Shown here: one piece after another, positions 42,913 through 64,000 of the stretch | How the letters are laid out: every line of letters begins with the position of its first letter | Position numbering within the stretch: position 1 is the stretch's first letter | Virus record (IMG/VR): IMGVR_UViG_3300034166_000560 | Length of the DNA stretch: 64,000 bases | Reading direction: 5' to 3' (one strand) | DNA from: a virus | The notes under the pieces: model-generated | The model's database searches: none | The model's input: the letters and a program-made list of their open reading frames with translations, nothing else | What the model was told of the DNA's origin: nothing | Made by a program: the position numbers and the translations under genes

Positions 42913-43459
42913 CTGAGTATCCTAGATTACGAAAGTCTCGGGCGTAGATCTTTCGAACCATATCCACGCTTTCCGAATCATAATCATTATTATACTCTTC
43001 TTTTGAATAAGAGCCAACGTTTATTTTTGGTATACGAATGTTTAGATCTACCTCGAGCTCCCAGAGCTCTTCGTATCTGTAGATCTTATCCATCTCTGTT
43101 ATATCTTCTTCAAAGATATAAAAAGATTGATCGTATTTCATAAGAGGAGTTTTCTCGGTAACTTCTCCTACCATAATCATGGACAAAAAGTTTTTAAAAG
43201 ATATTTGTATTTGATTGAATCGCAAAAAATGATGATAATAACTATACGCTCTTGTGAAGGGATTTCTTACGACAGAGAACTTGAAGACTTCTGGAGTAAT
43301 GTTATTATTAAGTTTGAGAACATGATAAGGATCGTGACCGATATGCCATGTTCTTAACCATGGTTGTTCTCTAAGTTGAGACCTGATAGCGATGCCACCA
43401 GTCTTAGGTATATGAACAAAGAGAAGAGGGGGAAGATCCCCCTCTACATTAGTAATCAT
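42899..43459 (-). CDS. sulfotransferase family 2 protein
   Basis: FVHIPKTGG (5'-PSB), VRNPFTRAYS (3'-PB), IYARDF..GY. Confidence 0.8.
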   Translation of the reverse strand: MITNVEGDLPPLLFVHIPKTGGIAIRSQLREQPWLRTWHIGHDPYHVLKLNNNITPEVFKFSVVRNPFTRAYSYYHHFLRFNQIQISFKNFLSMIMVGEVTEKTPLMKYDQSFYIFEEDITEMDKIYRYEELWELEVDLNIRIPKINVGSYSKEEYNNDYDSESVDMVRKIYARDFRNLGYSDEFS

Positions 43460-44873
43460 AACGCTCGTTCATGATAGTGTCGAGCATAATCGATTCGGGA
43501 GTAAAGGTCTCTACGTTAGCCAAACCCTTCACCAGTGCTGGCGAGAATCCAGAAACAAGAGCAACTCCAGAAGTATCATACTTCACAGGCTGATTACCAT
43601 ACGCAGCATTTAGATTCCAGAACACGATCTTTGGTAGATCATAACCAGCATCCTGATACTTACGAGCAATCATCTGTAATGCGCTATCGTCGAAACGAGT
43701 GCACTGGTTGAACTGCATGTCTGATAGAATAAGCAGCATGTCAGGCATTTCTTCCTGAGGCACATTACCCTTCTTAGCTACATCAAGAACCTTATCCAGA
43801 GCACGGTGCAGATCAGTAGACATAGCCCACTTAGACTGAACCATCTGCTGGCACTTCTGAACGATATTACCGTTTAGGTGCAGCAACTGTGGGTTGTCGC
43901 TGAAAGTCAAGAAGGTATCCTTGAACGCTCCAGTGTTCTTGTCTGCAAGATACAGACCAAGAGACACAGCAACGTCAATGCAAGTAGTACCACTCTTTGA
44001 GTTGTATCCACCAGCAGGAGTGGTCATTGAACCAGAAACGTCAACCAAAGGTAGGATACGGGCATCCCCAACGAAGTTAGGAAGAGCATCCCACTGAGCC
44101 TGAAGATGTCCAAGTTCAGTGGCATCATAGTCGTTTGACCAACGATATGAACATAGACCCTTTAGAACATCGTAAGGATACACAGCACCAGCGTTCACCT
44201 TTACGCCAGCTTCGCCCTTTACGAGCTTCTGAACATACTCAGCAAACTTTACAGAGTGCTTGTTGAATGCCTTCTTGTAACGAGAAGCAGCAAGAGAAGG
44301 AACCTTGTTGTAGTCGATCTCTTCCCACTGCTTTGCGCACATCTGAGTTTCAACAACGTTGGTTAGATTAACCAAAGTCTTACGATACTGCTTTGGAGTC
44401 ATACCAAGGAATGCACGTAGCTCTGCAGCCACTTCACCCTTACGAGGCATCCACTTAGCAACTAGACCAGCAGTATTCTGGTTAGACAATCCTTCACGGA
44501 TAAACTCGAACGCTTCCTTACGGACATCGCCCTTTGCAGTTAGGAGATCATCCCAACGACCAAGTTCCGGAACCTTATGCACGATACGAGCAGCAAGTGC
44601 AGGATCGTTGTCGCATAGGTACTGGAAAATATCACGGAAGATCTTACGTTCACCAGATCCACCACGAGCATCACGTGCCCATAGAGCAATACGAGTTGCA
44701 AGTTCCTTGTTGGTAACATATGCAGCTACGAAAGCAGGGATGATATCCTTACCACGAGAAGCACCAATGTTGAAGTATAGATCAACTAGCGGAGACGCAG
44801 TTGACTTCAGAGCCTTCATACCATTTTCAGTACGTGCTTCCTGATTCTTCACGGCATTAACAAAAGTAGACAT
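43449..44873 (-). CDS. DUF2828-type helical domain plus vWA protein (Ro60/TROVE-like by inference)
   Basis: RTENG, RDARGGSGER, GRWDDL, AKWMPR; vWA MIDAS DVSGS..T..SDMQF; FWNL, VSGFS. Confidence 0.82.
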   Translation of the reverse strand: MSTFVNAVKNQEARTENGMKALKSTASPLVDLYFNIGASRGKDIIPAFVAAYVTNKELATRIALWARDARGGSGERKIFRDIFQYLCDNDPALAARIVHKVPELGRWDDLLTAKGDVRKEAFEFIREGLSNQNTAGLVAKWMPRKGEVAAELRAFLGMTPKQYRKTLVNLTNVVETQMCAKQWEEIDYNKVPSLAASRYKKAFNKHSVKFAEYVQKLVKGEAGVKVNAGAVYPYDVLKGLCSYRWSNDYDATELGHLQAQWDALPNFVGDARILPLVDVSGSMTTPAGGYNSKSGTTCIDVAVSLGLYLADKNTGAFKDTFLTFSDNPQLLHLNGNIVQKCQQMVQSKWAMSTDLHRALDKVLDVAKKGNVPQEEMPDMLLILSDMQFNQCTRFDDSALQMIARKYQDAGYDLPKIVFWNLNAAYGNQPVKYDTSGVALVSGFSPALVKGLANVETFTPESIMLDTIMNERYDY

Positions 44874-44889
44874 TTCACTTTCCTTTTCT

Positions 44890-44950
44890 ACAGATTGAAC
44901 TTTGAGTCAAATTATCAGTTTGATTTTCATTGGATTGCTGAACTCAATCT
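44890..44950 (-). ncRNA. array unit 1: module with an Ile(GAU) anticodon stem-loop
   Basis: AGATTGA-GTTCAGCAA...TCAAA-CTGATAA-TTTGA...TCAATCT-GT. Confidence 0.7.
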
Positions 44951-44957
44951 AAAATTA

Positions 44958-45068
44958 ACAGGATAGATTTTACGTGCTCTACCGACTGAGCTACTCCCCC
45001 ATAGGGAAGGTGGGGCTCGAACCCACGACCACGGCTGTGTAAAAGCAAAACATTGCGGAAACTATCCT
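44958..45068 (-). ncRNA. array unit 2: YrlA-like RNA with a permuted tRNA domain
   Basis: AGGATAG-TTTCCGCAA...T arm GTGGG-TTCGAGC-CCCAC, closed acceptor-like hairpin CTTCCC-TATG-GGGGAG, D arm TAGCTCAGTCGGTAGAGCA...CTATCCT-GT. Confidence 0.8.
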
Positions 45069-45084
45069 AAAACTCTATATTACT

Positions 45085-45112
45085 ATTATACTACACTTTG
45101 CTTAGAAGTCAA
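45085..45112 (-). promoter_or_regulatory. sigma70-like promoter inside the RNA array
   Basis: TTGACT-16 nt-TATAAT on the - strand between units 3 and 2. Confidence 0.6.
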
Positions 45113-45121
45113 GCAAAAATA

Positions 45122-45189
45122 ACAGGATAACATCTTTCTTCGATTACAAGTCGAGTGCTTATTCAGCGATGGTTTGCTGTAGTTATCCT
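45122..45189 (-). ncRNA. array unit 3: module with a Thr(UGU) anticodon stem-loop
   Basis: AGGATAA-CTACAGCAAA...TCGA-CTTGTAA-TCGA...TTATCCT-GT. Confidence 0.7.
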
Positions 45190-45196
45190 AGAACTA

Positions 45197-45249
45197 ACGG
45201 GATCAACTTGGCTTGTTTGTGAGCAACAGTTGAATGCTGAACTGATCCC
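45197..45249 (-). ncRNA. array unit 4: minimal module
   Basis: GGGATCA-GTTCAGCAT...TGATCCC-GT; small internal hairpin containing CTCACAA. Confidence 0.65.
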
Positions 45250-45262
45250 AAAACTTTATACA

Positions 45263-45371
45263 ACAGGATATATTTTTTAGCTCCATGGCTATTAACCACG
45301 ATAGGATTTGAACCTATTATCTTCTGTAATAATACAGATGCTTCGACCGAAGTGTTTGCTGAAAATATCCT
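45263..45371 (-). ncRNA. array unit 5: module with a T-arm and three other hairpins
   Basis: AGGATAT-TTTCAGCAAA...ATAGG-TTCAAAT-CCTAT...ATATCCT-GT. Confidence 0.7.
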
Positions 45372-45379
45372 AAAACTAA

Positions 45380-45582
45380 ACTGGATGGTTGAAGGAATTT
45401 TTATTATTGTTCTGGAGAGACCGATTAACTCGTACGAGTATATCCTTCAACTCTCCCTATCTAATGATTCTCACTAGCAATATTTTCTCTCACCGTAGTG
45501 GAGAAACTCTCTGAACAGTAAGAACCAAAGTTCTTACATCGGAGGAGCCTTACGACTCCGAGTGGTTTGCTGTATCCATCCA
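45380..45582 (-). ncRNA. array unit 6: 203-nt multi-hairpin module
   Basis: TGGATGG-ATACAGCAAA...CCATCCA-GT enclosing several hairpins. Confidence 0.65.
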
Positions 45583-45589
45583 CAATAAA

Positions 45590-45646
45590 ACAGGATCAAC
45601 TTGCATTTTTCGTTCAAAGAAAAGTAGTTATTGCTGAACTGATCCT
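45590..45646 (-). ncRNA. array unit 7: module with an anticodon-like stem-loop (UGA)
   Basis: AGGATCA-GTTCAGCAA...TTTTC-TTTGAAC-GAAAA...TGATCCT-GT; begins 6 nt after the tRNA-Gly CCA. Confidence 0.7.
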
Positions 45647-45652
45647 AAAATT

Positions 45653-45727
45653 TGGAGCGGGCGACCAGAATCGAACTGGCGACCAACAGTTTGGAAGACT
45701 GTGACTCTACCCCTGAGTTACACCCGC
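45653..45727 (-). tRNA. tRNA-Gly(TCC)
   Basis: cloverleaf, loop CTTCCAA, CCA end. Confidence 0.93.
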
Positions 45728-45927
45728 AAACCCCATTTAATTTTCAACCAAATCCTTTCATGAATATAATAATCTATACTAAGAAGAAGATGAAGTATTG
45801 TAGCAAATCCTGTAGACTTGCCAATGTCACCAGTAAAAACGAAAGTCCAGAATATCGTAAACACCCATGCGGTTAAACGATAACTAATCATTCTTACTAC
45901 TGTACGTTTATGAGTTTCTTGTATCAT
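45718..45927 (-). CDS. DUF2061-like small membrane protein
   Basis: ETHKRTVVRMISYR..YYIHERIW; stop overlaps the tRNA-Gly 5' end; TATAAATA at 45938-45945 upstream. Confidence 0.65.
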   Translation of the reverse strand: MIQETHKRTVVRMISYRLTAWVFTIFWTFVFTGDIGKSTGFATILHLLLSIDYYIHERIWLKIKWGLRV

Positions 45928-46039
45928 TGAGATAACATATTTATATCAGAAAGAATAAAACCAGCGACTATCATCAGTCCAAAGAAACAAATAATTTTGA
46001 TTATTGCGCTCAATTTATGATTCATAATATATCCTCGAT

Positions 46040-46114
46040 TGGATCAGGAACCTGGACTCGAACCAAGATTAACGGAGTCAGAGTCCGTGGTTTTACCGAT
46101 TAAACTATTCCTGA
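46040..46114 (-). tRNA. tRNA-Gln(CTG)
   Basis: cloverleaf, loop CTCTGAC, CCA. Confidence 0.92.
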
Positions 46115-46115
46115 A

Positions 46116-46191
46116 TGGTGCTGGCAGAAGGAATCGAACCCTCGACCTGATGCTTACAAGGCAACTGCTCTACCGTCTGAGCTATACCAGC
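46116..46191 (-). tRNA. tRNA-Thr(TGT)
   Basis: cloverleaf, loop CTTGTAA, CCA. Confidence 0.93.
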
Positions 46192-46192
46192 G

Positions 46193-46552
46193 TTATTGAC
46201 ACACGGTGATCATAATAGGATCACCAAAAATATATCCCAGCGTATCCCATGGATCAGGATATGAAGTGCAAACTGGTTGAACAGGAACTTGCTGAACAAC
46301 TACCGTTGGCGTAACTGGCATCATGTAAACTTGATTACTGACAATGCCAACTCCATTGGGAACGTATTGTGGAGGAATAACCTGCACAACTGGTGCTGGA
46401 GCAACTACAACAGGAGCAGGTCTTACGACCTTCTTAACAACTCGAGTTGTCTTGTATGTGATAGTGCAACCATTACATACATCGATCTCTTGACCTGCAT
46501 AAGCAGGAGTAGCGAAGAGAATAAGAGCGAGAGCGAGCTTCTTAATATCCAT
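46193..46552 (-). CDS. secreted Pro/Val-rich hypothetical protein
   Basis: signal peptide MDIKKLALALILFATPAYA. Confidence 0.6.
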   Translation of the reverse strand: MDIKKLALALILFATPAYAGQEIDVCNGCTITYKTTRVVKKVVRPAPVVVAPAPVVQVIPPQYVPNGVGIVSNQVYMMPVTPTVVVQQVPVQPVCTSYPDPWDTLGYIFGDPIMITVCQ

Positions 46553-46826
46553 AGTAGTATCCTGACGGACCAGAGTAATACTGATAGCGAACTCCCGGAT
46601 AGGGACCATACGCATAGCCTGGACCAGTCGAGTAATATGGATACGGAGCGCCACGATAATACGGACCAGAAGCTAGACCACCAATGAGACCACCAAGAGC
46701 AAAACCAGCAATGGCAGCACCACCGTAACCCCATCCTCCGCCATAGCCCCATCCGCCACGATACCAGGCATTAGCAGGAGTAGTAAGTATACCTAAAACA
46801 GCGGCAATAGCAACAATCTTTTTCAT
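46542..46826 (-). CDS. secreted Gly/Tyr-rich protein (rhizobial BA14K-like architecture)
   Basis: signal peptide, then WYRGGWGYGGG, AAIAGFALGGLIGGLAS and a Tyr/Pro-rich tail. Confidence 0.65.
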   Translation of the reverse strand: MKKIVAIAAVLGILTTPANAWYRGGWGYGGGWGYGGAAIAGFALGGLIGGLASGPYYRGAPYPYYSTGPGYAYGPYPGVRYQYYSGPSGYYYGY

Positions 46827-46904
46827 CTTCATCTCCATAAGATAGCAGATTAACCTTTGATCTACACGAGACTATTTCTGGCGTCCATCCCAATCTATAA
46901 TTCT

Positions 46905-46932
46905 ATTATACCCTATTTATCCTACTAGTCAA
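46905..46932 (-). promoter_or_regulatory. sigma70-like promoter
   Basis: TTGACT-16 nt-TATAAT. Confidence 0.55.
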
Positions 46933-47857
46933 CAAGTAACTGTCTTTTTGTCTGAAAAAGATACTGCTCTCTAATTTTATCGCCAAGTTCTATATAACAA
47001 CAATCGCCGCAATTCCTACCAGTAACGAGATAGTTAAGGACAGCATTTTTATAATTTGCTATGCGGTCTCCAACATTAAGAGCTCTCACATCAACCCCAA
47101 ACCGATGTAACAAAGATATAGAGTTATCAATGTAATACATATCTGAGTTATGGTCAAGTTTACATTCTCGGAGAAACTCTGCGTATTTATCAGGAGATAA
47201 CTTACCAAGACTATAAAGAACAGAATAAACGGTACCAAGTTTATTACCAAGGTTTCCGGATTTAAAAATGTCGCCCACATCCGATACAAGGCCATTGTAT
47301 GAGATATCCTCTATAGAAGTCTTGTCCCAGATAAAGTTCCAATCGTTCTTGATCATATACTCTAGTAACATATACAAACAGCTTGGTTCGCCCAGTTCTA
47401 GATATTTAATCCTATCACATTTATAATTTAAAACAAAATAGTATTGCTGATTATCTTTATCGTAATTTACTGCTTTGATAACTTTAACAGAAGACAAATC
47501 AAATTCTTCTGAGTTTTCAATAATAGATAATTCTTTTACGCCACAAGAGCCAATGAAGTCTGTAAACTGTGGCTGATATTTCTCTTGAAAGATACCACTC
47601 TTATTATTGAACGCCCACTTACGAGCGTATGGTCCCATATAAAAAACGTCAGAGAAATCTACAACATCATAACCGTAAGTATTTACGATTGGATTACTAT
47701 CCAAAAACTGGCCATGATATGGAGCACCAGCGCCTTTGTAATAATACTCTTTACCTTTCGACACTCTTCCATTTACATGCTGCAGGTCATCATCAATCTC
47801 TAGTTTGTCTACTACTTGGCCAACAGAATTATAAATTGGAACAGTTGTCATAATCAC
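46925..47857 (-). CDS. hypothetical protein
   Basis: 310-aa ORF, no recognised motif. Confidence 0.65.
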   Translation of the reverse strand: MIMTTVPIYNSVGQVVDKLEIDDDLQHVNGRVSKGKEYYYKGAGAPYHGQFLDSNPIVNTYGYDVVDFSDVFYMGPYARKWAFNNKSGIFQEKYQPQFTDFIGSCGVKELSIIENSEEFDLSSVKVIKAVNYDKDNQQYYFVLNYKCDRIKYLELGEPSCLYMLLEYMIKNDWNFIWDKTSIEDISYNGLVSDVGDIFKSGNLGNKLGTVYSVLYSLGKLSPDKYAEFLRECKLDHNSDMYYIDNSISLLHRFGVDVRALNVGDRIANYKNAVLNYLVTGRNCGDCCYIELGDKIREQYLFQTKRQLLVD

Positions 47858-48438
47858 TCGCTGTAATGCATATACGAACTTAGTAAATACTTATCGCCTC
47901 TTAATACTGCCTCGCCTGCATGCGGATACATCCAGAAAGGAGGGAACATTAACAGCTTACCTTTTGCTGGTTCGTAATGCAGATTGATATTCGTTATACA
48001 GGTATTTCCGCCACTCTCTGGTCTGTTTAGATACCAAAAGAAAATCATAAACCGTTTGCCAGAAATAAGATCATTCGAATCGATATGTTCATCGAACCGA
48101 TCTATTGACTGTCTGTTAGGATACTCTCTGCCATCCGAATAATGTTTGATTCTAAACTCTTCGAATGCGAAATTCTTTGGCCAGAACCTAGTCTCCGGAA
48201 CTTCCTTACGATATCTCTCGATACCATCGAATGCACGTTCAACTAGATGCTGATGTAGTGTAGGATGTATTAGTTTATGACGACTAAAATTCATCTGCGT
48301 CATATTCGGAAAACCGTCATCATCATATCTGATATGAAGATCTGGTTTCCATTTAAACATCGCAATCAATTCATCGCAAATATCTTCTCCCAAATGATTG
48401 GGATAGACCTTGCAATAATCATGTATGAAGGCAGACAT
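47854..48438 (-). CDS. 2OG-Fe(II) oxygenase
   Basis: FDEHID, WYLN..GGNT, FPPFWMYPHAG, KYLLS. Confidence 0.85.
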   Translation of the reverse strand: MSAFIHDYCKVYPNHLGEDICDELIAMFKWKPDLHIRYDDDGFPNMTQMNFSRHKLIHPTLHQHLVERAFDGIERYRKEVPETRFWPKNFAFEEFRIKHYSDGREYPNRQSIDRFDEHIDSNDLISGKRFMIFFWYLNRPESGGNTCITNINLHYEPAKGKLLMFPPFWMYPHAGEAVLRGDKYLLSSYMHYSE

Positions 48439-48453
48439 ACAACATCCTAAAAA

Positions 48454-48528
48454 TGGCTCCCTGAGAAGGATTCGAACCTCCGGCCAAGTCGTTAACAGCG
48501 ACCTGCTCTACCACTGAGCTACCAGGGA
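48454..48528 (-). tRNA. tRNA-Asn(GTT)
   Basis: cloverleaf, loop CTGTTAA, CCA. Confidence 0.93.
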
Positions 48529-48532
48529 ATAT

Positions 48533-49267
48533 TCATTCTAAGAGATTATCTAAAACCTCTTCCATAAACTGTTTTCTAAGTTTTGATTTTCTAAACAAGT
48601 CATAATAATATTCTAAAGGACTAATCAAAGGATATTTATTATTTCTTGCAGACAAATTTCGTTGCATCAAATGTAAAATTTTCTCTGATGGATAGAACTT
48701 TACCAGTTCTACATTTTCATCGGTCATAAACTTTACATTAAGATAAGGATCTCCACGTTTTAAAGTTACCTCATTATATCCGTTCCTCACGAAAAAGGCA
48801 AACTCTATGTTTCTAATCCATTCATATATATTAAACTGTCCTGGCATACCAATGGTTGTTTTACCAAACTCGGTATCGCCGAGATACGTAGGAGTCGTCT
48901 GAATCTCTACGCTTTGTTCTGGAATAAACCAATAGTATAAATTAAGAGAGATCAATCTCTCTTTTGCCATTCTAACTCTAACAACATCATCAAAAAATTT
49001 CTGATCATACATATCAGAATAGACATCGCCATCGTCAGTAAATTTTAAAGTGTAATCAATAGGAAATCTTAACTCATACGAATTATGAATTCTTCTTTTC
49101 ATACTAGGACAATACTTAAAATTGTCCAACGGTTTTAGATCGTTCGAAGGTAATTTATTAAACAGTTCCGAAGTTTTCATCGGTTCGTAATAATTCAAAA
49201 ACTGGAGCGAATGATTATCACTCTCATTTACATTGAATGTATTTACTGCTGTCCAATAAACTTTCAT
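48533..49267 (-). CDS. hypothetical protein
   Basis: FKYCPS..PGQFNIYEWIR..KRGDP; 244 aa. Confidence 0.65.
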   Translation of the reverse strand: MKVYWTAVNTFNVNESDNHSLQFLNYYEPMKTSELFNKLPSNDLKPLDNFKYCPSMKRRIHNSYELRFPIDYTLKFTDDGDVYSDMYDQKFFDDVVRVRMAKERLISLNLYYWFIPEQSVEIQTTPTYLGDTEFGKTTIGMPGQFNIYEWIRNIEFAFFVRNGYNEVTLKRGDPYLNVKFMTDENVELVKFYPSEKILHLMQRNLSARNNKYPLISPLEYYYDLFRKSKLRKQFMEEVLDNLLE

Positions 49268-49278
49268 AACAACCTCAA

Positions 49279-49352
49279 TGGTACTGGGACCAGGTATCGA
49301 TCCTGAACTACAAGCTCCACAAACTCGTGTGCTACCACTACACTATCCCAGC
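49279..49352 (-). tRNA. tRNA-His(GTG), no encoded G-1, A73
   Basis: GCTGGGA/TCCCAGT-A-CCA, loop TTGTGGA. Confidence 0.88.
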
Positions 49353-49356
49353 AAAC

Positions 49357-49431
49357 TGGATCGGGGACAAGGACTCGAACCCTGATAGACAGAACCAAAA
49401 TCTGCCGTTCTACCAATTAAACTATCCCCGA
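49357..49431 (-). tRNA. tRNA-Gln(TTG)
   Basis: cloverleaf, loop TTTTGGT, CCA. Confidence 0.9.
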
Positions 49432-49438
49432 ACAAAAA

Positions 49439-49522
49439 TGGTGCCGAGAGTAGGGTTCGAACCTACCGTGCTATAAGCGTCCGATTTACAGTCGGGTGCC
49501 CGTCCACTCAGGCGGTCTCGGC
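49439..49522 (-). tRNA. tRNA-Tyr(GTA)
   Basis: loop CTGTAAA, long variable arm, CCA. Confidence 0.9.
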
Positions 49523-49527
49523 ATTAA

Positions 49528-49604
49528 TGGAGTCCCGAACAGGATTCAAACCTGTAGCCTTCGGTTTCGTAGACCGATGCTCTATTCAGTTGAGCTATCG
49601 AGAC
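49528..49604 (-). tRNA. tRNA-Arg(ACG)
   Basis: loop CTACGAA, CCA. Confidence 0.9.
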
Positions 49605-50082
49605 AATCCAGTAATGGAACAGGTGTGTAATCAATTACCTCAACGGAAACATTCTTATATGCTTCATCGGGCAAACTATTACGATGCACATGTCCATGAA
49701 CATTATACTTTGTTTTATACAGACTAGAAACATGCAATGGAATATGCGACAGAGTAGCATTGTATTCCGGAAACATTCTCCAGACCATAATCTTTTGAAA
49801 GACATTCTGTATGTGTTCGTTCTTAGCATTATCATGGTTGCCAAGAATAAGACGCTTACGCCCTTTCAATCTGTAAAGATGCTGATGACCTTTACCAAAA
49901 TAAACATCACCTAGATGATACACAATGTCAGAGTCAGAAACAACACTGTTCCAACGTTCAACCATATGCTCATCCATTTCTTCAACAGAAGAAAAGTTTC
50001 TAACAGGAGAACCATCTGCCTGTTTGAAGTTGAGTATATTAGCATGACCAAAGTGCGTATCACTAACAACAAAGATAGTCAT
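49582..50082 (-). CDS. calcineurin-like metallophosphoesterase
   Basis: SDTHFGH, HLGD, GNHD, SHIP, HGHVH; stop codon lies inside the tRNA-Arg gene. Confidence 0.87.
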   Translation of the reverse strand: MTIFVVSDTHFGHANILNFKQADGSPVRNFSSVEEMDEHMVERWNSVVSDSDIVYHLGDVYFGKGHQHLYRLKGRKRLILGNHDNAKNEHIQNVFQKIMVWRMFPEYNATLSHIPLHVSSLYKTKYNVHGHVHRNSLPDEAYKNVSVEVIDYTPVPLLDCLDSSTE

Positions 50083-50086
50083 AATA

Positions 50087-50164
50087 TGGTACTCCTAGTC
50101 AGATTCGAACTGACACTAGCGATGATTTTGAGTCAACGTCCTCTACCAGTTGGGATATAGGAGC
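50087..50164 (-). tRNA. tRNA-Leu(CAA), short variable region
   Basis: loop CTCAAAA, CCA, 78 nt. Confidence 0.8.
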
Positions 50165-50170
50165 ATTATA

Positions 50171-50272
50171 TGGTAGGCCAGGTAGGAGTTGCACCTACAC
50201 GTTATCCATTATCCGGATAATAGACAACAGCGCCCAGCGTTAGCGCCACGGTTACTATTACGTCACTGACCT
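50171..50272 (-). ncRNA. atypical tRNA-like RNA (non-canonical anticodon loop, very long variable arm)
   Basis: AGGTCAG/CTGGCCT-A-CCA acceptor stem, T arm GTAGG-TGCAACT-CCTAC, GCGCT-AACGCTG-GGCGC arm, long extra hairpin of about 12 bp. Confidence 0.7.
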
Positions 50273-50276
50273 ATAA

Positions 50277-50352
50277 TGGTGCTTCCCCTCAGAATCAAAC
50301 AGAGTCCTCTCGTTCTTCAGACGAGCGTGCGCATCAGCTACACCAGAGAAGC
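50277..50352 (-). tRNA. tRNA-Phe(GAA)
   Basis: loop CTGAAGA, CCA. Confidence 0.85.
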
Positions 50353-50353
50353 A

Positions 50354-50430
50354 TGGTGCCCCAGGAGAGATTCGAACTCCCAACCTTCGGTTCCTAAGAC
50401 CGACGCCTCTACCAATTGGGCTATTGGGGC
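50354..50430 (-). tRNA. tRNA-Leu(TAG), short variable region
   Basis: loop CTTAGGA, CCA, 77 nt. Confidence 0.85.
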
Positions 50431-50519
50431 ATAAACTTACGGGTCTGTGATAGTTACGAGCTAACCAGCACCCTGCCAGAGACTAAGCCATACGTCTATG
50501 ACCGTCCTACTGGAACATA

Positions 50520-50595
50520 TGGTAGGGGATGACAGGATTGAACTGCCGACCTTCGCCGTGTAAAAGCGTTGCTCTCCCAGCTGAGCTAATCCCCC
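50520..50595 (-). tRNA. tRNA-Val(TAC)
   Basis: loop TTTACAC, CCA. Confidence 0.92.
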
Positions 50596-50724
50596 AAAAT
50601 TCCCTGGACCGAAGACTCGTCCGCCTTCCTGCTACTAGTGCACTTTCGCAGTATGGCTCAAATTGTGTCCTGTCTGCACTCGGTCCTACATGCGCTCTAT
50701 TTTTCTACGCCGAAGCGGGCGAAT

Positions 50725-50801
<77 letters not shown>

Positions 50802-50808
50802 ATTATAC

Positions 50809-50884
50809 TGGATGCGATGCGTTGGAATTGCACCAACTTCTACTGGTTTATGAGACCAGCGAGATACTATACCTCCCGCCCGCA
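50809..50884 (-). tRNA. tRNA-Met(CAT), atypical acceptor stem
   Basis: CTGGT-CTCATAA-ACCAG, T arm GTTGG-TGCAATT-CCAAC, bulged acceptor stem, CCA. Confidence 0.7.
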
Positions 50885-50966
50885 AAACTCGCTGTCCCTC
50901 ACGCCTTGGGACGAATGTTGTCTAGTATTACGACACTCCATAAAGGCTGTGTATCTAGATCAAACC

Positions 50967-51041
50967 TGGTGCTGATAGTTGGAATCAAACCAACCTTTAA
51001 AGCCTTATGAGGACTCCTCGACATCTTGCCGACCTACCAGC
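50967..51041 (-). tRNA. tRNA-Met(CAT)
   Basis: GAGTC-CTCATAA-GGCTT, CCA. Confidence 0.8.
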
Positions 51042-51183
51042 GAAATAGCTTCCCTGTTATTATAGAGGTATCGGGACCCTCTACTGGTAAACACCTCGAC
51101 AGACCTAGGAACCATCGATTAGCAGTCCAGCGAAAAATAGAGTCAGGGCACAAATTGTGTCATACATCCCCGACTCATTAAAT

Positions 51184-51257
51184 TGGCACCAGTGGAAGGA
51201 GTCGAACCCTCGCCTAGAGTTTTGGAGACTCCCGTGCTACCGTAACACTTCACTGAT
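51184..51257 (-). tRNA. tRNA-Trp(CCA)
   Basis: loop CTCCAAA, CCA. Confidence 0.9.
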
Positions 51258-51259
51258 AC

Positions 51260-51343
51260 TGGCGGAGGATGAAGGAATCGAACCATCAACCTTTCGGTGG
51301 CGGAGTTTTCAAGACTCTGTGTGCCCCAGGCACGCCATCCTCC
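51260..51343 (-). tRNA. tRNA-Ser(TGA)
   Basis: loop CTTGAAA, variable arm, G73-CCA. Confidence 0.88.
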
Positions 51344-51346
51344 AAT

Positions 51347-51422
51347 TGGTGGAAGTGACAGGCATCGAACCTGCAACCTGCTGCGTGCAAGGCAGCTGCT
51401 CTCCCAGTTGAGCTACACCCCC
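51347..51422 (-). tRNA. tRNA-Ala(TGC)
   Basis: loop CTTGCAC, G3:U70, CCA. Confidence 0.92.
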
Positions 51423-51423
51423 A

Positions 51424-51588
51424 TTGATAATACGCCAACGGACCAACAATGACCAATAGGTAGCCTTATCACCGTTTGCTATTACACCCTCATCGGGTGC
51501 TAACCATCGCAGGTTAGTCTGGATCAATTCTTACCGTATCATTTGTCAACGTTTCGAACCGTAGTCTGATCCGTTGGCGTATTATCAA
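51424..51588 (-). ncRNA. 165-nt structured RNA closed by a perfect 19-bp stem
   Basis: TTGATAATACGCCAACGGA (51424-51442) is the reverse complement of 51570-51588; internal hairpins; directly downstream of a promoter. Confidence 0.65.
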
Positions 51589-51603
51589 GTATTCTATTTA
51601 GTC

Positions 51604-51632
51604 ATAATACTATAAATTTTCTAACAAGTCAA
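51604..51632 (-). promoter_or_regulatory. sigma70-like promoter
   Basis: TTGACT-17 nt-TATTAT. Confidence 0.6.
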
Positions 51633-51641
51633 TAACTTTTT

Positions 51642-51731
51642 TGGCGGAGAGTGAGAGATTCGAACTCTCGGAAGACTTTCGCCCTCGCTTCGTTAGCAGT
51701 GAAGTGCCTTCGACCACTCGGCCAACTCTCC
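51642..51731 (-). tRNA. tRNA-Ser(GCT)
   Basis: loop CTGCTAA, long variable arm, G73-CCA. Confidence 0.93.
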
Positions 51732-51734
51732 AAT

Positions 51735-51826
51735 TGGTAGGGGATCCCGGATTCGAACCGAGTCGAGAACGCTAATCGGGCGCTGAAAGGTTTATAAAAC
51801 CTCCCTGTGTACCAACACCATCCCCC
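51735..51826 (-). tRNA. tRNA with TAT anticodon (Ile-decoding) and a long variable arm
   Basis: GAGGT-TTTATAA-ACCTT, variable hairpin AGCGC-CCGATTA-GCGTT, A73-CCA, 92 nt. Confidence 0.75.
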
Positions 51827-51831
51827 ATATA

Positions 51832-51907
51832 TGGCGGGAGCGACGAGTTTCGATCTCGCTACCTCAGCAGTGACAGTGCTGCGCTCTCCCAATTGAGCTA
51901 CGCCCCC
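51832..51907 (-). tRNA. tRNA-Asp(GTC)
   Basis: loop CTGTCAC, CCA. Confidence 0.9.
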
Positions 51908-51908
51908 A

Positions 51909-52301
51909 TTAAATCAATTTAGAATACTTGTGTCTTTCTTTGTTACCATTGCCTTTATTTAAGGCTTTCCAAGTTGGAGTTAAAGAATGACAATTAGGAC
52001 AAAGAACTTTTAAATTCTCTTCTTTACAGTTAGCACAATCTCCATCTATATGATCTATTTCTAGAGGAGAATTACCAGTCACTGGATTTATTTTATTCCA
52101 TCCACATTCAGAACAACTATAATTAGATTTCTCTAACATATATCTTCTGATATGAGACTTAACTCTTAATCCAGCTTTATATCCTTTGTCATTACCATCA
52201 AACCATTCTTGTAATAGTTTCTTGGTTCTTAACTCTCCCTGGCATTTATTATTACAATACTTACCAGCTTTTATTTCTTTACCGCAATTTAAGCAATGCA
52301 T
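51909..52301 (-). CDS. HNH endonuclease inserted in the tRNA cluster
   Basis: CSECG, LEIDHIDGD..NLKVLCPNCH; TATAAATA at 52333-52340 upstream. Confidence 0.88.
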   Translation of the reverse strand: MHCLNCGKEIKAGKYCNNKCQGELRTKKLLQEWFDGNDKGYKAGLRVKSHIRRYMLEKSNYSCSECGWNKINPVTGNSPLEIDHIDGDCANCKEENLKVLCPNCHSLTPTWKALNKGNGNKERHKYSKLI

Positions 52302-52356
52302 CTAATACCTCATAAACTGACGCCTTTTGCTTTATTTATAAAACCACGGTGTTTAA

Positions 52357-52433
52357 TGGAGGATCCTCTGGGATTCGAACCCAGGACATACCGATTAAAA
52401 GTCGGATGTTCTAACCTACTGAACTAAGGATCC
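52357..52433 (-). tRNA. tRNA-Lys(TTT)
   Basis: loop CTTTTAA, CCA. Confidence 0.92.
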
Positions 52434-52436
52434 AAA

Positions 52437-52512
52437 TGGTAGACCTGGAGGGATTCGAACCCCCGTCAAGAGATTAAGAGTCTCCTGCTAAAACCAACTC
52501 AGCTACAGGTCC
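52437..52512 (-). tRNA. tRNA-Lys(CTT)
   Basis: loop CTCTTAA, CCA. Confidence 0.9.
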
Positions 52513-52637
52513 ATAAATTCCTTGTACCGTTTCCATCTTACCCTTCCATGGCGAGAAAAGACAGCGCCCTTGCGGGTTATTTTAATTCGGACACTCCTCC
52601 ATCGAGGATTCGCACGGTACCACACGGACCGAATATA

Positions 52638-52712
52638 TGGTGACTCCTGGGGGAATCGAACCCCCCTACCAAGATTGAAAGTCTTGTGTCCTAACCGATA
52701 GACGAAGGAGCC
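52638..52712 (-). tRNA. tRNA-Glu(TTC)
   Basis: loop CTTTCAA, CCA. Confidence 0.9.
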
Positions 52713-52785
52713 ATAAACTCTCGGGTTGCTACCACCCAACCCTTCCCGAGACCATTAAAATGGTAGTTGTAGCCTCGGAGTATTC

Positions 52786-52860
52786 TGGTTGTTCCACCAA
52801 GAATCGAACTTGGATCTAACGATTATCAGTCGTTTGCACTAACCGTTGTGCTATGGAACA
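52786..52860 (-). tRNA. tRNA-Ile(GAT)
   Basis: loop CTGATAA, CCA. Confidence 0.9.
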
Positions 52861-52869
52861 ATAATAACA

Positions 52870-52998
52870 CTTAGAAAGATACAGGTTTACTATATCTCGG
52901 ACGGAGATGGTTGCAACCAGAGCCCACGGATAAAGATACAAGGTTTGAGCATCAGTATTTACTGGCGCCTTGCTCGCACGAGCCTGTACCTATCTAAG
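52870..52998 (-). ncRNA. putative 129-nt structured RNA
   Basis: terminal pairing CTTAGA/TCTAAG plus TACAGG/CCTGTA; first element after the 53011-53039 promoter. Confidence 0.5.
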
Positions 52999-53010
52999 CA
53001 TTATATATTC

Positions 53011-53039
53011 ATTATAACCTAAACTTCCGAAGAAGTCAA
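53011..53039 (-). promoter_or_regulatory. sigma70-like promoter for the tRNA cluster
   Basis: TTGACT-17 nt-TATAAT. Confidence 0.7.
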
Positions 53040-53047
53040 CAACTTTT

Positions 53048-53127
53048 TGGAGGGAGTGATGGGACTCGAACCCACATATTTTAGGTTTTGCAGACCTTGC
53101 CGTAACCAATTCCGGACACACACTCCC
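53048..53127 (-). tRNA. tRNA-Cys(GCA)
   Basis: loop CTGCAAA, U73-CCA. Confidence 0.85.
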
Positions 53128-62121: not shown

Positions 62122-62801
62122 TGTAAGTCCTCGATTGATGGAAACTCATACCTATTATAGCTTATAACTTTGAAATTATCAATAATGAAATGTTCAAACA
62201 TAGGAGCAGCTACTTGAATATCTAATCCGCTTCTTTTTAGAATATCTGCTGTTGATGCAAATATAATACCATTTGCTCCATAAGAATAATGCAATGGTCT
62301 GGCTTCGTTACGGAAAGCAGTAATTACTTTATCTTTATCAAGAGTGCAAACCGACATGCTTGCAGGATGGAACTTATGTAAAGGGAGTTCGCCTTTCTCT
62401 AAACAACGAAGAATAAGTTCGCTATCATTCTTTGTGATAACATCATAACCAAATGTTTCTTTCCATTGTTCTGGATTCTCCTGAGAGATAACTCCATTAT
62501 GAACAATAGAAAGTTCTTCGGTTGCCATTGGTTGATTGTAAGCAAGATCGCTAGTTGAGTAACGAACATGACCAATACAATATAGATTGCCATCTTCATT
62601 AACCCAACTAGGAATATCTTGATTGTTTATGAATGTGCAAGCATTAACAGGTTCTTTAATAGTGTGAACCTTGCCATCTTTGACATATGATACACCAGTG
62701 GCATGTTTACCACGGATCATTGACTGAACAAAAAGCCGACGAACAAGTTCGAATTCCTGCTCGCTCGGCTTCTTGATCGCTATTCCTAGCACTCCGCACA
62801 T
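62118..62801 (-). CDS. class II glutamine amidotransferase / Ntn-hydrolase domain protein
   Basis: N-terminal MCG, RGKHATG, GHVRYST, NQP, HNGVI, NDSE, RPL. Confidence 0.85.
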   Translation of the reverse strand: MCGVLGIAIKKPSEQEFELVRRLFVQSMIRGKHATGVSYVKDGKVHTIKEPVNACTFINNQDIPSWVNEDGNLYCIGHVRYSTSDLAYNQPMATEELSIVHNGVISQENPEQWKETFGYDVITKNDSELILRCLEKGELPLHKFHPASMSVCTLDKDKVITAFRNEARPLHYSYGANGIIFASTADILKRSGLDIQVAAPMFEHFIIDNFKVISYNRYEFPSIEDLQ

Positions 62802-64000
62802 TAGAAGAATGACTCCAATGAAGCAGCAGCGTCTTTACCGTATGGATCTTTCATATTATGAGCATGAAGATATTCATACCATTCTTTGTCATCCCACATT
62901 CCAGGAGAGACGCCATTCCATAGTGGACGCTGAAGTGGATGAGCCTTATTCATACGACGTTCTTCGACATATTGTTTACGTAACGCTTCATACTCATAAG
63001 ACTTTAGTTCTAGCATCTTCTCACGGAAGTAACAAATTACTGAGATTCTTTCACAAGTAGAATCATCCGGATTGTTAAGAACAATAGGAGTATTACCATG
63101 AATGATTTCGTGGTTGTTAACAAGGAGCAAATCACCGGGACGAACATTAACAGCAACACGATACTCAGGAAATACGAGATAGCCACCAGTATATTCTCCT
63201 GTGCCTAGAACGAGTAGATTAGAAAGACCAGCATCAAGATCACCAGCGTCTCGATGACAGGCAGTGCGGAAAGTTTTATTAACTGTAATTGTGGTAAATA
63301 CAGTTTCTGGTACAAGGAACCGAGGATCTAACTTATCTGCAGCTGCTCGCTGATTACCCCAACGCCAAGGTAGTAATTCCTTGAAACCCTTATTCAGTGA
63401 TTGGAGGAATGGGTATGCCAGTTCGAAAAGTTCTGGATGCTTTTCAGTGTATGACGTTGCACGCCCGTAAGGAATGCGAGGGTAACGATCGTACCAACCA
63501 GCAACACCTGAGAATACGGATTGTGCGTAATTAGTGGCAGAAGCCCACTTTTCTGCGACCATTCTTGCTTCGGCATGAATTTCCTCCTGTGGTTTATTAC
63601 TTAGGCCATCCACCCATTTATCAAACCAATCATGATATTCTGGATAAACCTTTGTTACCTCTGAACGCAACCAAACAACACCACGTGTTTCTTCAGCACC
63701 TTTTGGACCACCGTTTTTATATTTTTCTCTGATGGATTCGATTGATGTATCATCAATAAGAGATGCACCATCATTCATAAGGAACTCTAGTATCTCCATC
63801 TGATATGGAGTAACCCAATCTCTACCACCACGGCTTTGCGCTGCAAGCATTTCACCACGAGGACCAGCAGCATGGCCACGATTCTGGCTTTCAGTCGCAG
63901 CTTCTCTCAAGCCACGATAAGCCATATCCTGTTCTTCTTGACTGAAATAGTTTTTACGAAACTTGAAAGCAATACGCAATTCGTCATTGCCCTTTTCACA
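62801..64000 (-). CDS. TET/JBP-family 2OG-Fe(II) dioxygenase (5' end outside window)
   Basis: FTTITVN, TACHRDAGD (HxD), GGYLVFPEY, PGDLLL..HEIIHGNT, RISVICYFRE; frame stays open to the window end. Confidence 0.82.
   Translation of the reverse strand, partial: CEKGNDELRIAFKFRKNYFSQEEQDMAYRGLREAATESQNRGHAAGPRGEMLAAQSRGGRDWVTPYQMEILEFLMNDGASLIDDTSIESIREKYKNGGPKGAEETRGVVWLRSEVTKVYPEYHDWFDKWVDGLSNKPQEEIHAEARMVAEKWASATNYAQSVFSGVAGWYDRYPRIPYGRATSYTEKHPELFELAYPFLQSLNKGFKELLPWRWGNQRAAADKLDPRFLVPETVFTTITVNKTFRTACHRDAGDLDAGLSNLLVLGTGEYTGGYLVFPEYRVAVNVRPGDLLLVNNHEIIHGNTPIVLNNPDDSTCERISVICYFREKMLELKSYEYEALRKQYVEERRMNKAHPLQRPLWNGVSPGMWDDKEWYEYLHAHNMKDPYGKDAAASLESFF

What the first reader, a model, noticed from the sequence alone, without database searches (positions are those of the whole stretch)
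44890..45646. Isolated anticodon stem-loops displayed as cargo: candidate decoys for anticodon nucleases
Unit 1 carries TCAAA-CTGATAA-TTTGA (44907-44923), whose loop is identical to the phage tRNA-Ile(GAU) loop. Unit 3 carries TCGA-CTTGTAA-TCGA (45140-45154), whose loop is identical to the tRNA-Thr(UGU) loop. Unit 7 carries TTTTC-TTTGAAC-GAAAA (45607-45623), a UGA-centred 7-nt loop. Unit 4 has a weaker CTCACAA loop. Canonical YU-NNN-RN loops on 4-5 bp stems without the rest of a tRNA are unlikely by chance in three of seven units. Inference: they could titrate host anticodon nucleases (PrrC/RloC, VapC, PARIS-type) or recruit synthetases or modification enzymes.
Basis: partly seen in the sequence, partly recalled or inferred. 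Interest (0 to 1): 0.8.

Follow-up and report, generated by a model that had tools for sequence, protein, structure and literature searches.

The report
Anticodon-arm mimics on phage Y-like RNAs
A cyanophage-like virus encodes seven small RNAs in a row in front of its Ro60-like RNA-binding protein, and three of them display a bare copy of a tRNA anticodon hairpin; related phages keep the design but swap the three coding letters, so these are probably baits for proteins that read or cut tRNA anticodons, which nobody has tested.

Summary
Units 1, 3 and 7 carry 4-5 bp stems with 7-nt loops at the stated coordinates on the minus strand. The loops of units 1 and 3 match this phage's own tRNA-Ile(GAU) and tRNA-Thr(UGU) loops. 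Unit 4 fails: its best fold lacks U33.

Context: the seven units share a covarying closing helix plus a YCAGCAA motif. They lie between a 24-tRNA cluster and a 474-aa DUF2828 protein whose model matches Ro60/Rsr over its full length. They look like Y-RNA-like partner RNAs.

In about 80 related loci, 24 of 66 distinct short-cargo units have a stem of at least 4 bp with a CU-NNN-AA loop, against 0.14 expected from shuffles. The usual geometry is 5 bp plus 7 nt. Stems covary. Units with identical handles carry different anticodons.

Mimicry under selection is well supported. The decoy function is untested. One circumstantial link: the Thr(UGU) and Lys(UUU) types match the prime targets of the PARIS nuclease AriB.

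This scan has noted the same design on other phage DNA. I found no published description. It is a new variant of Ro60/Y-RNA tRNA mimicry.

The parts
43449..44873 (-). 474-aa Ro60-like protein (Pfam DUF2828 + DUF7788; helical ring part plus vWA domain with an intact MIDAS DxSxS motif)
   Evidence: ORF. Pfam. PHROG 850 'RNA-binding protein'. AF2 model pLDDT 70. The top 13 Foldseek PDB hits are all Ro60/Rsr/phage phiLo Ro60 over the full length, E 1e-8 to 1e-6. Invariant D278, S280 and S282.
43425..43445 (-). Terminator-like hairpin just after the Ro60-like ORF
   Evidence: Pattern scan.
44892..44950 (-). Unit 1: handle plus a bare anticodon-arm mimic (5-bp stem, loop CUGAUAA at 44907-44923). It ends 18 nt before the ATG of the Ro60-like gene.
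   Evidence: CM R1 62.9 bits. Loop equals the phage tRNA-Ile(GAU) loop. Units with the same handle in L018 and L020 carry AUGCAAA and CUUGAAA.
44960..45068 (-). Unit 2: handle plus a circularly permuted tRNA-like body (T arm, closed acceptor stem, D arm), preceded by a 3-bp hairpin with loop UUUACAC at 45034-45046
   Evidence: Rfam YrlA partial match, 42 bits, E 1e-6, below the gathering score of 69. CM R1 33.9 bits. Loop equals the phage tRNA-Val(UAC) loop.
45085..45112 (-). Sigma-70-like promoter (11 of 12 consensus matches) between units 3 and 2
   Evidence: A similar element sits at the same place in L003.
45124..45189 (-). Unit 3: handle, a small first hairpin, then a bare anticodon-arm mimic (4-bp stem, loop CUUGUAA at 45140-45154)
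   Evidence: CM R1 58.5 bits. Loop equals the phage tRNA-Thr(UGU) loop. The same loop occurs on five different fully paired stems in ten distinct units.
45199..45249 (-). Unit 4: handle plus a short cargo with no canonical anticodon loop (best hairpin loop GCUCACA, 45214-45228)
   Evidence: CM R1 52.2 bits.
45265..45371 (-). Unit 5: handle plus a second tRNA-like body (T arm, closed 7-bp acceptor stem, two further hairpins)
   Evidence: Fold -27.6 kcal/mol, z -4.5. CM R1 42.5 bits.
45382..45582 (-). Unit 6: handle with a 178-nt multi-hairpin cargo of unknown kind
   Evidence: Handle found by my pairing scan. Missed by CM R1. No Rfam match.
45592..45646 (-). Unit 7: handle plus a hairpin of 5 bp with loop UUUGAAC (45607-45623). 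It starts 6 nt after tRNA-Gly.
   Evidence: The minimum-energy fold contains the hairpin. CM R1 62.4 bits.
45653..53125 (-). Upstream cluster of 24 tRNA genes on the same strand. It includes the Ile(GAU), Thr(UGU), Ser(UGA) and Val(UAC) tRNAs whose loops the units copy.
   Evidence: ARAGORN. Rfam. Anticodon arms listed.

Best explanation
The hairpins in units 1 and 3, and less surely unit 7, are selected mimics of tRNA anticodon arms. Each sits as the variable module of a Y-RNA-like small RNA. The constant handle of that RNA is a 7-8 bp closing helix plus a YCAGCAA / AAAGU internal loop, and it is the probable docking site for the Ro60-like ring protein encoded immediately downstream.

Units 7 to 3 are probably cut out of the tRNA-cluster transcript. 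Units 2 and 1 lie in the leader of the Ro60-like mRNA, behind an internal promoter.

In the assembled particle the anticodon arm points away from the protein. There it can be bound by proteins that recognise anticodon loops. The leading candidates are host anticodon nucleases of phage-defence systems (PARIS AriB type, PrrC/RloC, VapC and similar), which would be sequestered or competitively inhibited. An array holding several anticodons would act as a panel of baits.

Shown here: the hairpins, their conservation and covariation, the anticodon switching, the shared handle, and the Ro60-like fold. Inferred: expression and processing, binding to the protein, and the bait function.

My odds: selected anticodon-arm mimicry about 0.8; Y-like partner RNA of the Ro60-like protein about 0.8; bait for anticodon nucleases specifically about 0.35.
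For: 1. The sequences are at the stated coordinates, and two loops are identical to the phage's own tRNA loops.

2. Family statistics: 24 of 66 distinct short-cargo units have a stem of at least 4 bp with a CU-NNN-AA loop, against 0.14 in shuffles.

3. Without any filter on loop sequence, the longest-stem hairpin has a 7-nt loop in 32 of 65 units, and 26 of those 32 have exactly 5 bp. The loops show C32 in 22, U33 in 23, A37 in 27 and A38 in 27, while positions 34-36 vary.

4. Covariation on alignment A2: the handle helix is 93% paired with 6 of 8 pairs compensatory. The anticodon-like helix is 79% paired with 4 of 4 compensatory. No shuffle of 500 reaches this, and slid controls drop to 33-47% paired.

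5. CUUGUAA sits on five different fully paired stems, and CUUGAAA on six.

6. Units with identical handles differ in the triplet only: CUGAUAA / AUGCAAA / CUUGAAA, CUCAUAA / CUUGAAA, and UUGGAAU / CUGUAAA. A single change turns the Thr type into the Lys type in the same frame.

7. Model R1 hits only the array within the 64-kb window. My scan finds 68 short-cargo units on the sense strand against 2 on the antisense strand.

8. The protein folds like Ro60. Units lie beside the homologous gene in cultured phages: Aeromonas LAh_9, Synechococcus BUCT-ZZ01, Ralstonia RSP15, and weakly Felix O1.

9. [quoted passage not shown] Lys-type mimics share 15 contiguous bases with the E. coli tRNA-Lys anticodon arm, and Thr-type mimics share 13 with tRNA-Thr(UGU). 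That paper itself raises competition by viral tRNAs as a possibility. A Ro60-like protein of Bas63 is reported to counter the ppl defence system (PMC11482910).
Against: The stems are AU-rich and marginally stable, and the minimum-energy folds of units 1 and 3 differ from the proposed hairpins.

About half of the short cargoes are not anticodon-like, and other units carry whole tRNA bodies or unknown cargo. The scaffold is therefore not dedicated to anticodon arms.

17 of 35 loops are CUUGUAA or CUUGAAA. They could be one binding motif (CUUGWAA) rather than two anticodons.

Ser(UGA) and Ile(GAU) are not known targets of phage-defence nucleases, as far as I know.

The window's own unit 3 reads U36-A-A-U-C-G41, not the AriB determinant.

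The host is unknown, probably a cyanobacterium, and its defence systems and tRNAs were not examined.

Cellular tRNAs are abundant, so a simple competitive decoy would need high copy number or extra affinity from the protein.

Units in related loci share ancestry, so the counts are not independent events.
Confidence: 0.5

Rival explanations
1. Tether rather than decoy. The anticodon arms recruit a tRNA-binding host or phage protein to the Ro60-like particle for RNA processing or quality control. Candidates are a modification enzyme such as MiaA or the t6A, cmo5U or mnm5s2U machinery, an aminoacyl-tRNA synthetase such as ThrRS, RNases, or the ribosomal decoding site. This would parallel the way bacterial Y RNAs tether Rsr to PNPase.
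For: This is the established logic of Y RNAs (PMC4201824; PMC12135203). YrlA is a substrate of tRNA enzymes (PMC4201824). All displayed triplets end in A or U and are followed by A37-A38, the context of i6A and t6A modification (that context is from my own knowledge). Val(UAC), Thr(UGU) and Ser(UGA) are all xo5U34 tRNAs in Gram-negative bacteria (my own knowledge). The contig holds no RNA ligase or RtcB.
Against: No enzyme partner is identified. The neighbouring genes gave no tRNA-enzyme match above threshold. SerRS does not read the anticodon, so a synthetase reading cannot cover the Ser type. Rapid switching of triplets between close relatives fits an arms race better than housekeeping recruitment.
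Confidence: 0.2
2. Structural loops inherited from tRNA. The units descend from tRNA-like Y RNAs, and the 7-nt U-turn loop is kept because it contacts the Ro60-like protein, another unit or another RNA. It is not kept because it imitates an anticodon to a third party.
For: Full permuted tRNA bodies carrying the same hairpin exist in relatives: L003 has the identical 15-nt hairpin of unit 3 inside a complete tRNA-like unit. This fits reduction from tRNA-like ancestors. The CUUGWAA predominance could reflect one binding motif.
Against: Triplets differ widely among units with the same handle, while positions 32, 33, 37 and 38 stay fixed. That is the pattern of real anticodon loops, not of one fixed contact motif. 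Many units lack the loop altogether, so it cannot be needed for binding the protein.
Confidence: 0.15
3. Chance or decay. The hairpins are accidental or are decaying remnants of tRNA genes with no function.
For: Weak predicted stability and non-significant z-scores for the short units.
Against: Enrichment far above shuffles, compensatory changes, conservation down to 49% protein identity and into phages of other hosts, and strand specificity.
Confidence: 0.03

Closest known systems
Bacterial and phage Ro60 (Rsr) with YrlA / YrlB Y RNAs (Rfam RF02553; Chen et al. 2014, PMC4201824; structure preprint 10.1101/312249)
   Same: A small RNA is encoded beside, and on the same strand as, a Ro60-type ring protein. 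Its 5' and 3' ends close a stem that carries the protein-binding site. The distal module mimics tRNA. Several such RNAs can sit next to one gene.
   Different: The protein belongs to Pfam DUF2828/DUF7788, not TROVE. The handle motif is YCAGCAA, not GNCGAA. There are seven units in tandem. The modules include bare anticodon arms and permuted tRNAs that keep an anticodon hairpin, whereas in YrlA the anticodon position is taken by the Ro-binding stem. Only unit 2 touches the Rfam model, and it scores below threshold.
Thermus phage phiLo Ro60 with Yrl1/Yrl2 (PMC12135203; PDB 9KOP, 9L5Y)
   Same: A phage-encoded Ro60 homologue with Y-like RNAs just upstream of the gene. It is the best structural match of the model. 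A counter-defence role was proposed for it.
   Different: phiLo has two RNAs with a CGAA bulge and no reported anticodon mimicry. Sequence identity to the protein here is about 16%.
Dictyostelid Class I RNAs (Kjellin et al. 2021, PMC7919456)
   Same: RNAs of about 60 nt with a short covarying stem joining the ends, a conserved 5' G, an 11-nt motif next to the 5' strand that ends in C-A-A with a conserved C three bases before, a CUGU tail after the 3' strand, and a variable remainder. The phage handle has the same layout.
   Different: Class I RNAs are eukaryotic and nuclear-encoded, with no known Ro-like partner and no reported anticodon mimicry. The full motif string is shown only in a figure that I could not read, so the match is partial.
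Phage tRNAs that neutralise tRNA-targeting defences (T5 tRNA-Lys/Thr/Asn against PARIS: PMC11464382, PMC12409363; phage tRNAs against retrons: PMC11555353)
   Same: Phage-encoded RNA with an anticodon arm of the targeted tRNA species. Lys(UUU) and Thr(UGU) recur in both cases.
   Different: Those are complete, functional tRNAs that replace cleaved host tRNAs and carry mutations that resist cleavage. The units here cannot be charged or decode. Several relatives keep the sensitive determinant instead of mutating it.
E. coli thrS mRNA operator (anticodon-arm mimic bound by ThrRS; from my own knowledge, not checked here)
   Same: An isolated hairpin that imitates the tRNA-Thr anticodon arm and binds a tRNA-recognising protein.
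   Different: That is a cis-regulatory element of a cellular mRNA. It is not a trans-acting RNA on a protein scaffold, and it has no panel of anticodons.

Membership tests
Y RNA (Ro60 partner RNA) | Encoded next to a Ro60-type protein gene on the same strand | tested here: met
   The array ends 18 nt before the ATG of the 474-aa ORF. The ORF's model matches Ro60/Rsr over its full length.
Y RNA (Ro60 partner RNA) | 5' and 3' ends form a conserved stem that carries the protein-binding site | tested here: met
   The 7-8 bp closing helix is 93% paired, with 6 of 8 pairs compensatory and 0 of 500 shuffles as good. G6, U9, C15, G17, C18 and A19 are invariant in 56 units.
Y RNA (Ro60 partner RNA) | Canonical bacterial Ro-binding motif GNCGAAN0-1G | tested here: not met
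   The handle motif is YCAGCAA instead. The canonical motif is as defined in PMC4201824.
Y RNA (Ro60 partner RNA) | Physical binding to the Ro60-type protein | not testable with these tools
YrlA (Rfam RF02553) | Score at or above the Rfam gathering threshold (69 bits) | tested here: not met
   Unit 2 scores 42 bits over model positions 23-87. Units 1, 3, 4 and 7 have no match.
tRNA anticodon stem-loop (as a mimic) | 7-nt loop with Y32, U33 and R37 on a stem of about 5 bp | tested here: met
   Met by units 1, 3 and 7 and not by unit 4. In the family, 26 of the 32 7-nt-loop hairpins have exactly 5 bp.
tRNA anticodon stem-loop (as a mimic) | Loop frame conserved while the triplet varies, with stems covarying across homologues | tested here: met
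tRNA gene | Cloverleaf with acceptor stem, D arm and T arm | tested here: not met
   ARAGORN and Rfam find no tRNA in units 1, 3, 4 or 7. Their cargoes are only 26-42 nt.
Ro60 / TROVE protein family | Ring of helical repeats plus a vWA domain with a MIDAS motif | tested here: met
   Foldseek TM 0.5-0.58 to 9KOP, 2NVO and 1YVP over about 500 columns. Invariant DxSxS, T353 and D385. The model is of moderate quality, pLDDT 70.
Ro60 / TROVE protein family | Match to Pfam TROVE (PF05731) | tested here: not met
   Pfam reports only DUF2828 and DUF7788. A sequence search of the PDB finds no Ro60.
Decoy or inhibitor of anticodon nucleases | Binds, competes with or is cleaved by a tRNA-targeting nuclease | not testable with these tools
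   Sequence resemblance only. The published AriB determinant U36AAUC|A41 (PMC12409363) is present in 5 relatives. The window's unit 3 reads UAAUCG.
Dictyostelid Class I RNA | Short terminal stem, adjacent 11-nt motif (conserved T3, C6, C9, A10, A11) and a CUGU tail | tested here: inconclusive
   The phage handle has C, C, A, A at the matching places and a C-U-G-U tail. T3 is present in only some units. The exact motif could not be read from the text.

The most novel reading that the evidence does not exclude
Phages carry an RNA-based, re-targetable anti-defence device. It is a Ro60-like ring loaded with a panel of small RNAs, each presenting the anticodon arm of one tRNA species. The panel traps or blocks the tRNA-cutting nucleases of several bacterial immune systems (PARIS-type AriB and others). 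Changing three loop letters would retarget a unit. The same handle-plus-cargo design would also account for the unexplained Class I RNAs of social amoebae.
Probability: 0.3. Interest if true: 0.9.

Novelty: new variant of a known kind. Interest (0 to 1): 0.7.

Why it matters
tRNA cleavage is now recognised as a common end-point of bacterial immunity (PARIS, retron effectors, PrrC/RloC, OLD, Schlafen-type nucleases). The known viral answer is to bring replacement tRNAs.

A particle that displays only the anticodon arm would be a second answer that is independent of translation. The three coding letters change between close relatives. This would give Ro60-like proteins in phages a concrete job.

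It would also extend Y-RNA tRNA mimicry from the tRNA body to the anticodon. It offers compact natural inhibitors or probes for anticodon-recognising enzymes.

The design occurs in cultured phages with tractable hosts, so it can be tested directly. Examples are Aeromonas phage LAh_9, Synechococcus phage BUCT-ZZ01 on S. elongatus PCC 7942, and Felix O1-type phages of E. coli and Salmonella.

Tried and rejected
- Tandem Repeats Finder found nothing, because the cargoes differ too much.
- blastn of the array against phage records matched only the neighbouring tRNA-Gly.
- A sequence search of the PDB with the protein gave no Ro60. Only the fold search did.
- Literature searches for DUF2828 and for Ro60 with phage, Y RNA and anticodon terms returned no description of these RNAs.
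- RtcB and the two RNA-ligase families are absent from the 90-kb contig, which is only about 54% complete. The T4 Rnl1 model also gave no hit in any control genome, so its absence here carries no weight.
- NCBIfam gave nothing useful for the neighbouring ORFs. A TadA-like hit scored 19.7 bits against a cut-off of 150.
- Single-sequence folding does not single out the anticodon-like hairpins.
- My early reading paired a UUUUAC stretch of unit 2 with GUAAAA near its 3' end. I dropped it because the 3' stretch is part of the conserved A-rich 3' flank of all units.
- Model R1 finds no units in KVP40 and only weak ones in Cronobacter S13.
- The long-cargo units from my scan are noisier: 14 antisense against 144 sense. 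I did not use them for statistics.
Full report
**What is there**

The interval 44890-45646 lies on the minus strand. It sits between a cluster of 24 tRNA genes (45653-53125) and a 474-aa ORF (43449-44873).

Read on that strand, it holds seven units. Each begins with a U-rich run and a 7-8 nt arm. A YCAGCAA motif follows, then a variable cargo of 26 to 178 nt, then an A-rich stretch, and finally the complementary arm followed by GUU.

The window is part of a 90-kb IMG/VR viral contig, about 54% complete. Its structural genes resemble T4-like cyanophages.

**The protein**

- Pfam sees only DUF2828 and DUF7788. PHROGs calls it an RNA-binding protein.
- An AlphaFold model built from eight homologues has moderate quality, pLDDT 70.
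- In the PDB, its top 13 matches are all Ro60, Rsr or the Thermus phage phiLo Ro60. They align over about 500 columns at E 1e-8 to 1e-6. vWA/MIDAS domains follow only at E above 1e-3.
- The MIDAS residues are invariant.
- The family occurs in 701 phage records. These include Felix O1-type phages and mycobacteriophages, where it is annotated as Ro-like.

**The scaffold**

An alignment of 56 short units from the window and from related viral contigs shows invariant handle positions.

- The closing helix is 93% paired, with compensatory changes at six of eight pairs.
- No shuffle of 500 reaches the observed covariation.
- Sliding the partner columns drops pairing to 33-47%.

A covariance model of the unit hits six of the seven units and nothing else in the 64-kb window. 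My pairing scan finds 68 short-cargo units on the sense strand upstream of the homologous genes, against 2 on the antisense strand.

Unit 2 gives a partial, sub-threshold match to the tRNA-like part of YrlA. Unit 5 is a second tRNA-like body.

I read these as Y-RNA-like partner RNAs of a divergent Ro60-like protein. The handle differs from the published bacterial motif (PMC4201824).

**The observation**

The three hairpins are at exactly the coordinates given.

- The loops of units 1 and 3 are identical to the loops of this phage's tRNA-Ile(GAU) and tRNA-Thr(UGU). The stems are unrelated.
- Unit 7 has a loop of canonical format that differs at positions 32 and 38 from tRNA-Ser(UGA). Its closest relatives show an 8-nt loop.
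- Unit 4 is not anticodon-like.
Another first-stage note had pointed this out.

Single-sequence folding does not favour the hairpins, which are AU-rich. The case therefore rests on comparison.

**Comparison with homologous arrays**

Two scans of viral contigs with the protein gave about 95 loci at 49-88% identity. Nearly all carry units directly upstream of the gene.

Among 66 distinct short-cargo units:

- 45 contain a stem of at least 4 bp with a 7-nt loop.
- 26 of these loops are Y-U-NNN-R, against 0.5 expected from shuffles.
- 24 are CU-NNN-AA, against 0.14 expected.

Taking the longest-stem hairpin of each unit, with no filter on loop sequence, gives a second measure. The modal loop size is 7 nt (32 of 65 units), and 26 of those 32 have exactly 5 bp. 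Positions 32, 33, 37 and 38 are C, U, A and A in 22-27 of the 32, while positions 34-36 vary.

The triplets are UGU (10), UGA (7), UUU (3), CAU (2) and GCA (2), plus single cases of GAU, GAA, GUA and others.

- The Thr-type loop sits on five different fully paired stems, and the Ser-type loop on six.
- The four pairs of the anticodon-like helix all show compensatory changes.
- Units with identical handles carry different triplets. Across the group, the unit just before the start codon reads GAU here and UGA, GCA, CAU, GUA, GGA or GAA elsewhere.
- The same 15-nt hairpin as unit 3 occurs inside a complete permuted tRNA-like unit in L003. Bare arms and whole mimics are therefore related.

**Cultured phages**

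- Aeromonas phage LAh_9 has eight or nine units before the gene. They include a Lys(UUU)-type arm and a CAU-type arm.
- Synechococcus phage BUCT-ZZ01 has a UUU-type arm.
- Ralstonia phage RSP15 has a GUU-type loop with C at position 33.
- Felix O1 has weaker handle units in the spacers between its tRNA genes.

**Function**

Nothing here tests function. Three facts make the nuclease-bait reading the leading one.

[quoted passage not shown] It depends on the sequence U36-A-A-U-C|A41. The same paper raises competition by viral tRNAs as a possibility (PMC12409363).
- Thr and Lys types are the commonest U36 mimics. Five of them carry that determinant. Lys-type arms share 15 contiguous bases with the E. 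coli tRNA-Lys arm, and Thr-type arms share 13 with tRNA-Thr(UGU).
- A Ro60-like protein of the Felix O1-type phage Bas63 is reported to counter a defence system (PMC11482910). That it is the homologue of this protein is my inference, from its described position before the tRNA genes.

Five points count against the bait reading.

- Half of the cargoes are not anticodon-like.
- UGU and UGA may be one motif.
- The window's own unit 3 has G at position 41.
- The host is unknown.
- A plain competitor would have to outnumber abundant tRNAs.

A tethering role, as in Rsr-Y RNA-PNPase particles, remains a serious rival.

**Known or new**

tRNA mimicry by Y RNAs beside Ro60 genes, including in phages, is published (PMC4201824, PMC12135203). 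I found no paper describing this handle, tandem arrays of it, or bare anticodon arms with switching triplets. Rfam 15 has no family for it.

Earlier agents of this scan reported the same design in other phage genomes and reached similar readings. Those are unchecked notes, not independent evidence. One of their leads was the likeness of the handle to dictyostelid Class I RNAs. It agrees with the published description of that class as far as the text allows.

I class the finding as a new variant of a known kind.

Noticed in passing
window 45085-45112 (-): A near-consensus sigma-70-type promoter (11 of 12) lies inside the array, between units 3 and 2. A similar element is at the same place in L003. 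Units 2 and 1 would then form the leader of the Ro60-like mRNA, and units 7 to 3 would belong to the tRNA transcript.
   Followed up: partly
window 44874-44950 (-); most related loci at -70 to -90 from the ATG: The last unit always ends a few bases before the ribosome-binding site of the Ro60-like gene. Binding of the protein to that handle could feed back on its own translation. In unit 1 and its L002 counterpart, the 5' arm can also pair with a second, nearer complementary stretch, which gives an alternative helix.
   Followed up: no
L099 4396-4638 (Cronobacter phage S13); L100 5012-5125 (Citrobacter phage Ci1): Features annotated as a 121-nt tRNA-Ser and as 'tRNA-OTHER' lie downstream of the homologous gene. 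In S13 they are tRNA bodies with CCA ends whose anticodon arm is replaced by a closed hairpin followed by UAUUCAGCA. This is the same handle motif in the circularly opposite arrangement. I read only the S13 sequences.
   Followed up: partly
L097 4255-4322, 4422-4480, 4876-4944 (Salmonella phage Felix O1): Three spacers between annotated tRNA genes downstream of the Ro60-like ORF86 have the layout arm - UACAGCAA - cargo - complementary arm - G. The model scores are weak (E 0.04-1.7). They are candidates for the Y RNAs that PMC11482910 suspected among the tRNA genes of Bas63.
   Followed up: partly
L103 2875-3000 (Aeromonas phage LAh_9): The annotated start of the RNA-binding protein CDS (2875) overlaps two handle units. 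The homology begins at 3001, and an ATG with a ribosome-binding site lies near 2980, so the annotated start is probably too early.
   Followed up: partly
window 46116-46191 and 52357-52433 (-): The phage's own tRNA-Thr(UGU) has G39, and its tRNA-Lys(UUU) has G41. E. coli has U39 and A41 at these positions, which are the two positions at which T5 tRNA-Lys escapes AriB (PMC12409363). The host tRNAs are unknown, so this may simply reflect lineage.
   Followed up: partly
window 45382-45582 (-): Unit 6 carries a 178-nt cargo with several hairpins and no Rfam match. Large cargoes of 130-170 nt on the same handle also occur in L098 (about 2150-2320), L009 and L012.
   Followed up: no
window 62801-63979 (-): A 392-aa ORF matches PHROG 24024 and, weakly, queuine tRNA-ribosyltransferase (TGT/DpdA-like). 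It could act on DNA or on tRNA anticodon loops.
   Followed up: no
window 50813-50879 (-) and 51735-51826 (-): Rfam calls a tRNA at 50813-50879 (31.8 bits) that ARAGORN does not list. The tRNA-Ile(UAU) is 92 nt long and has a long extra arm.
   Followed up: no
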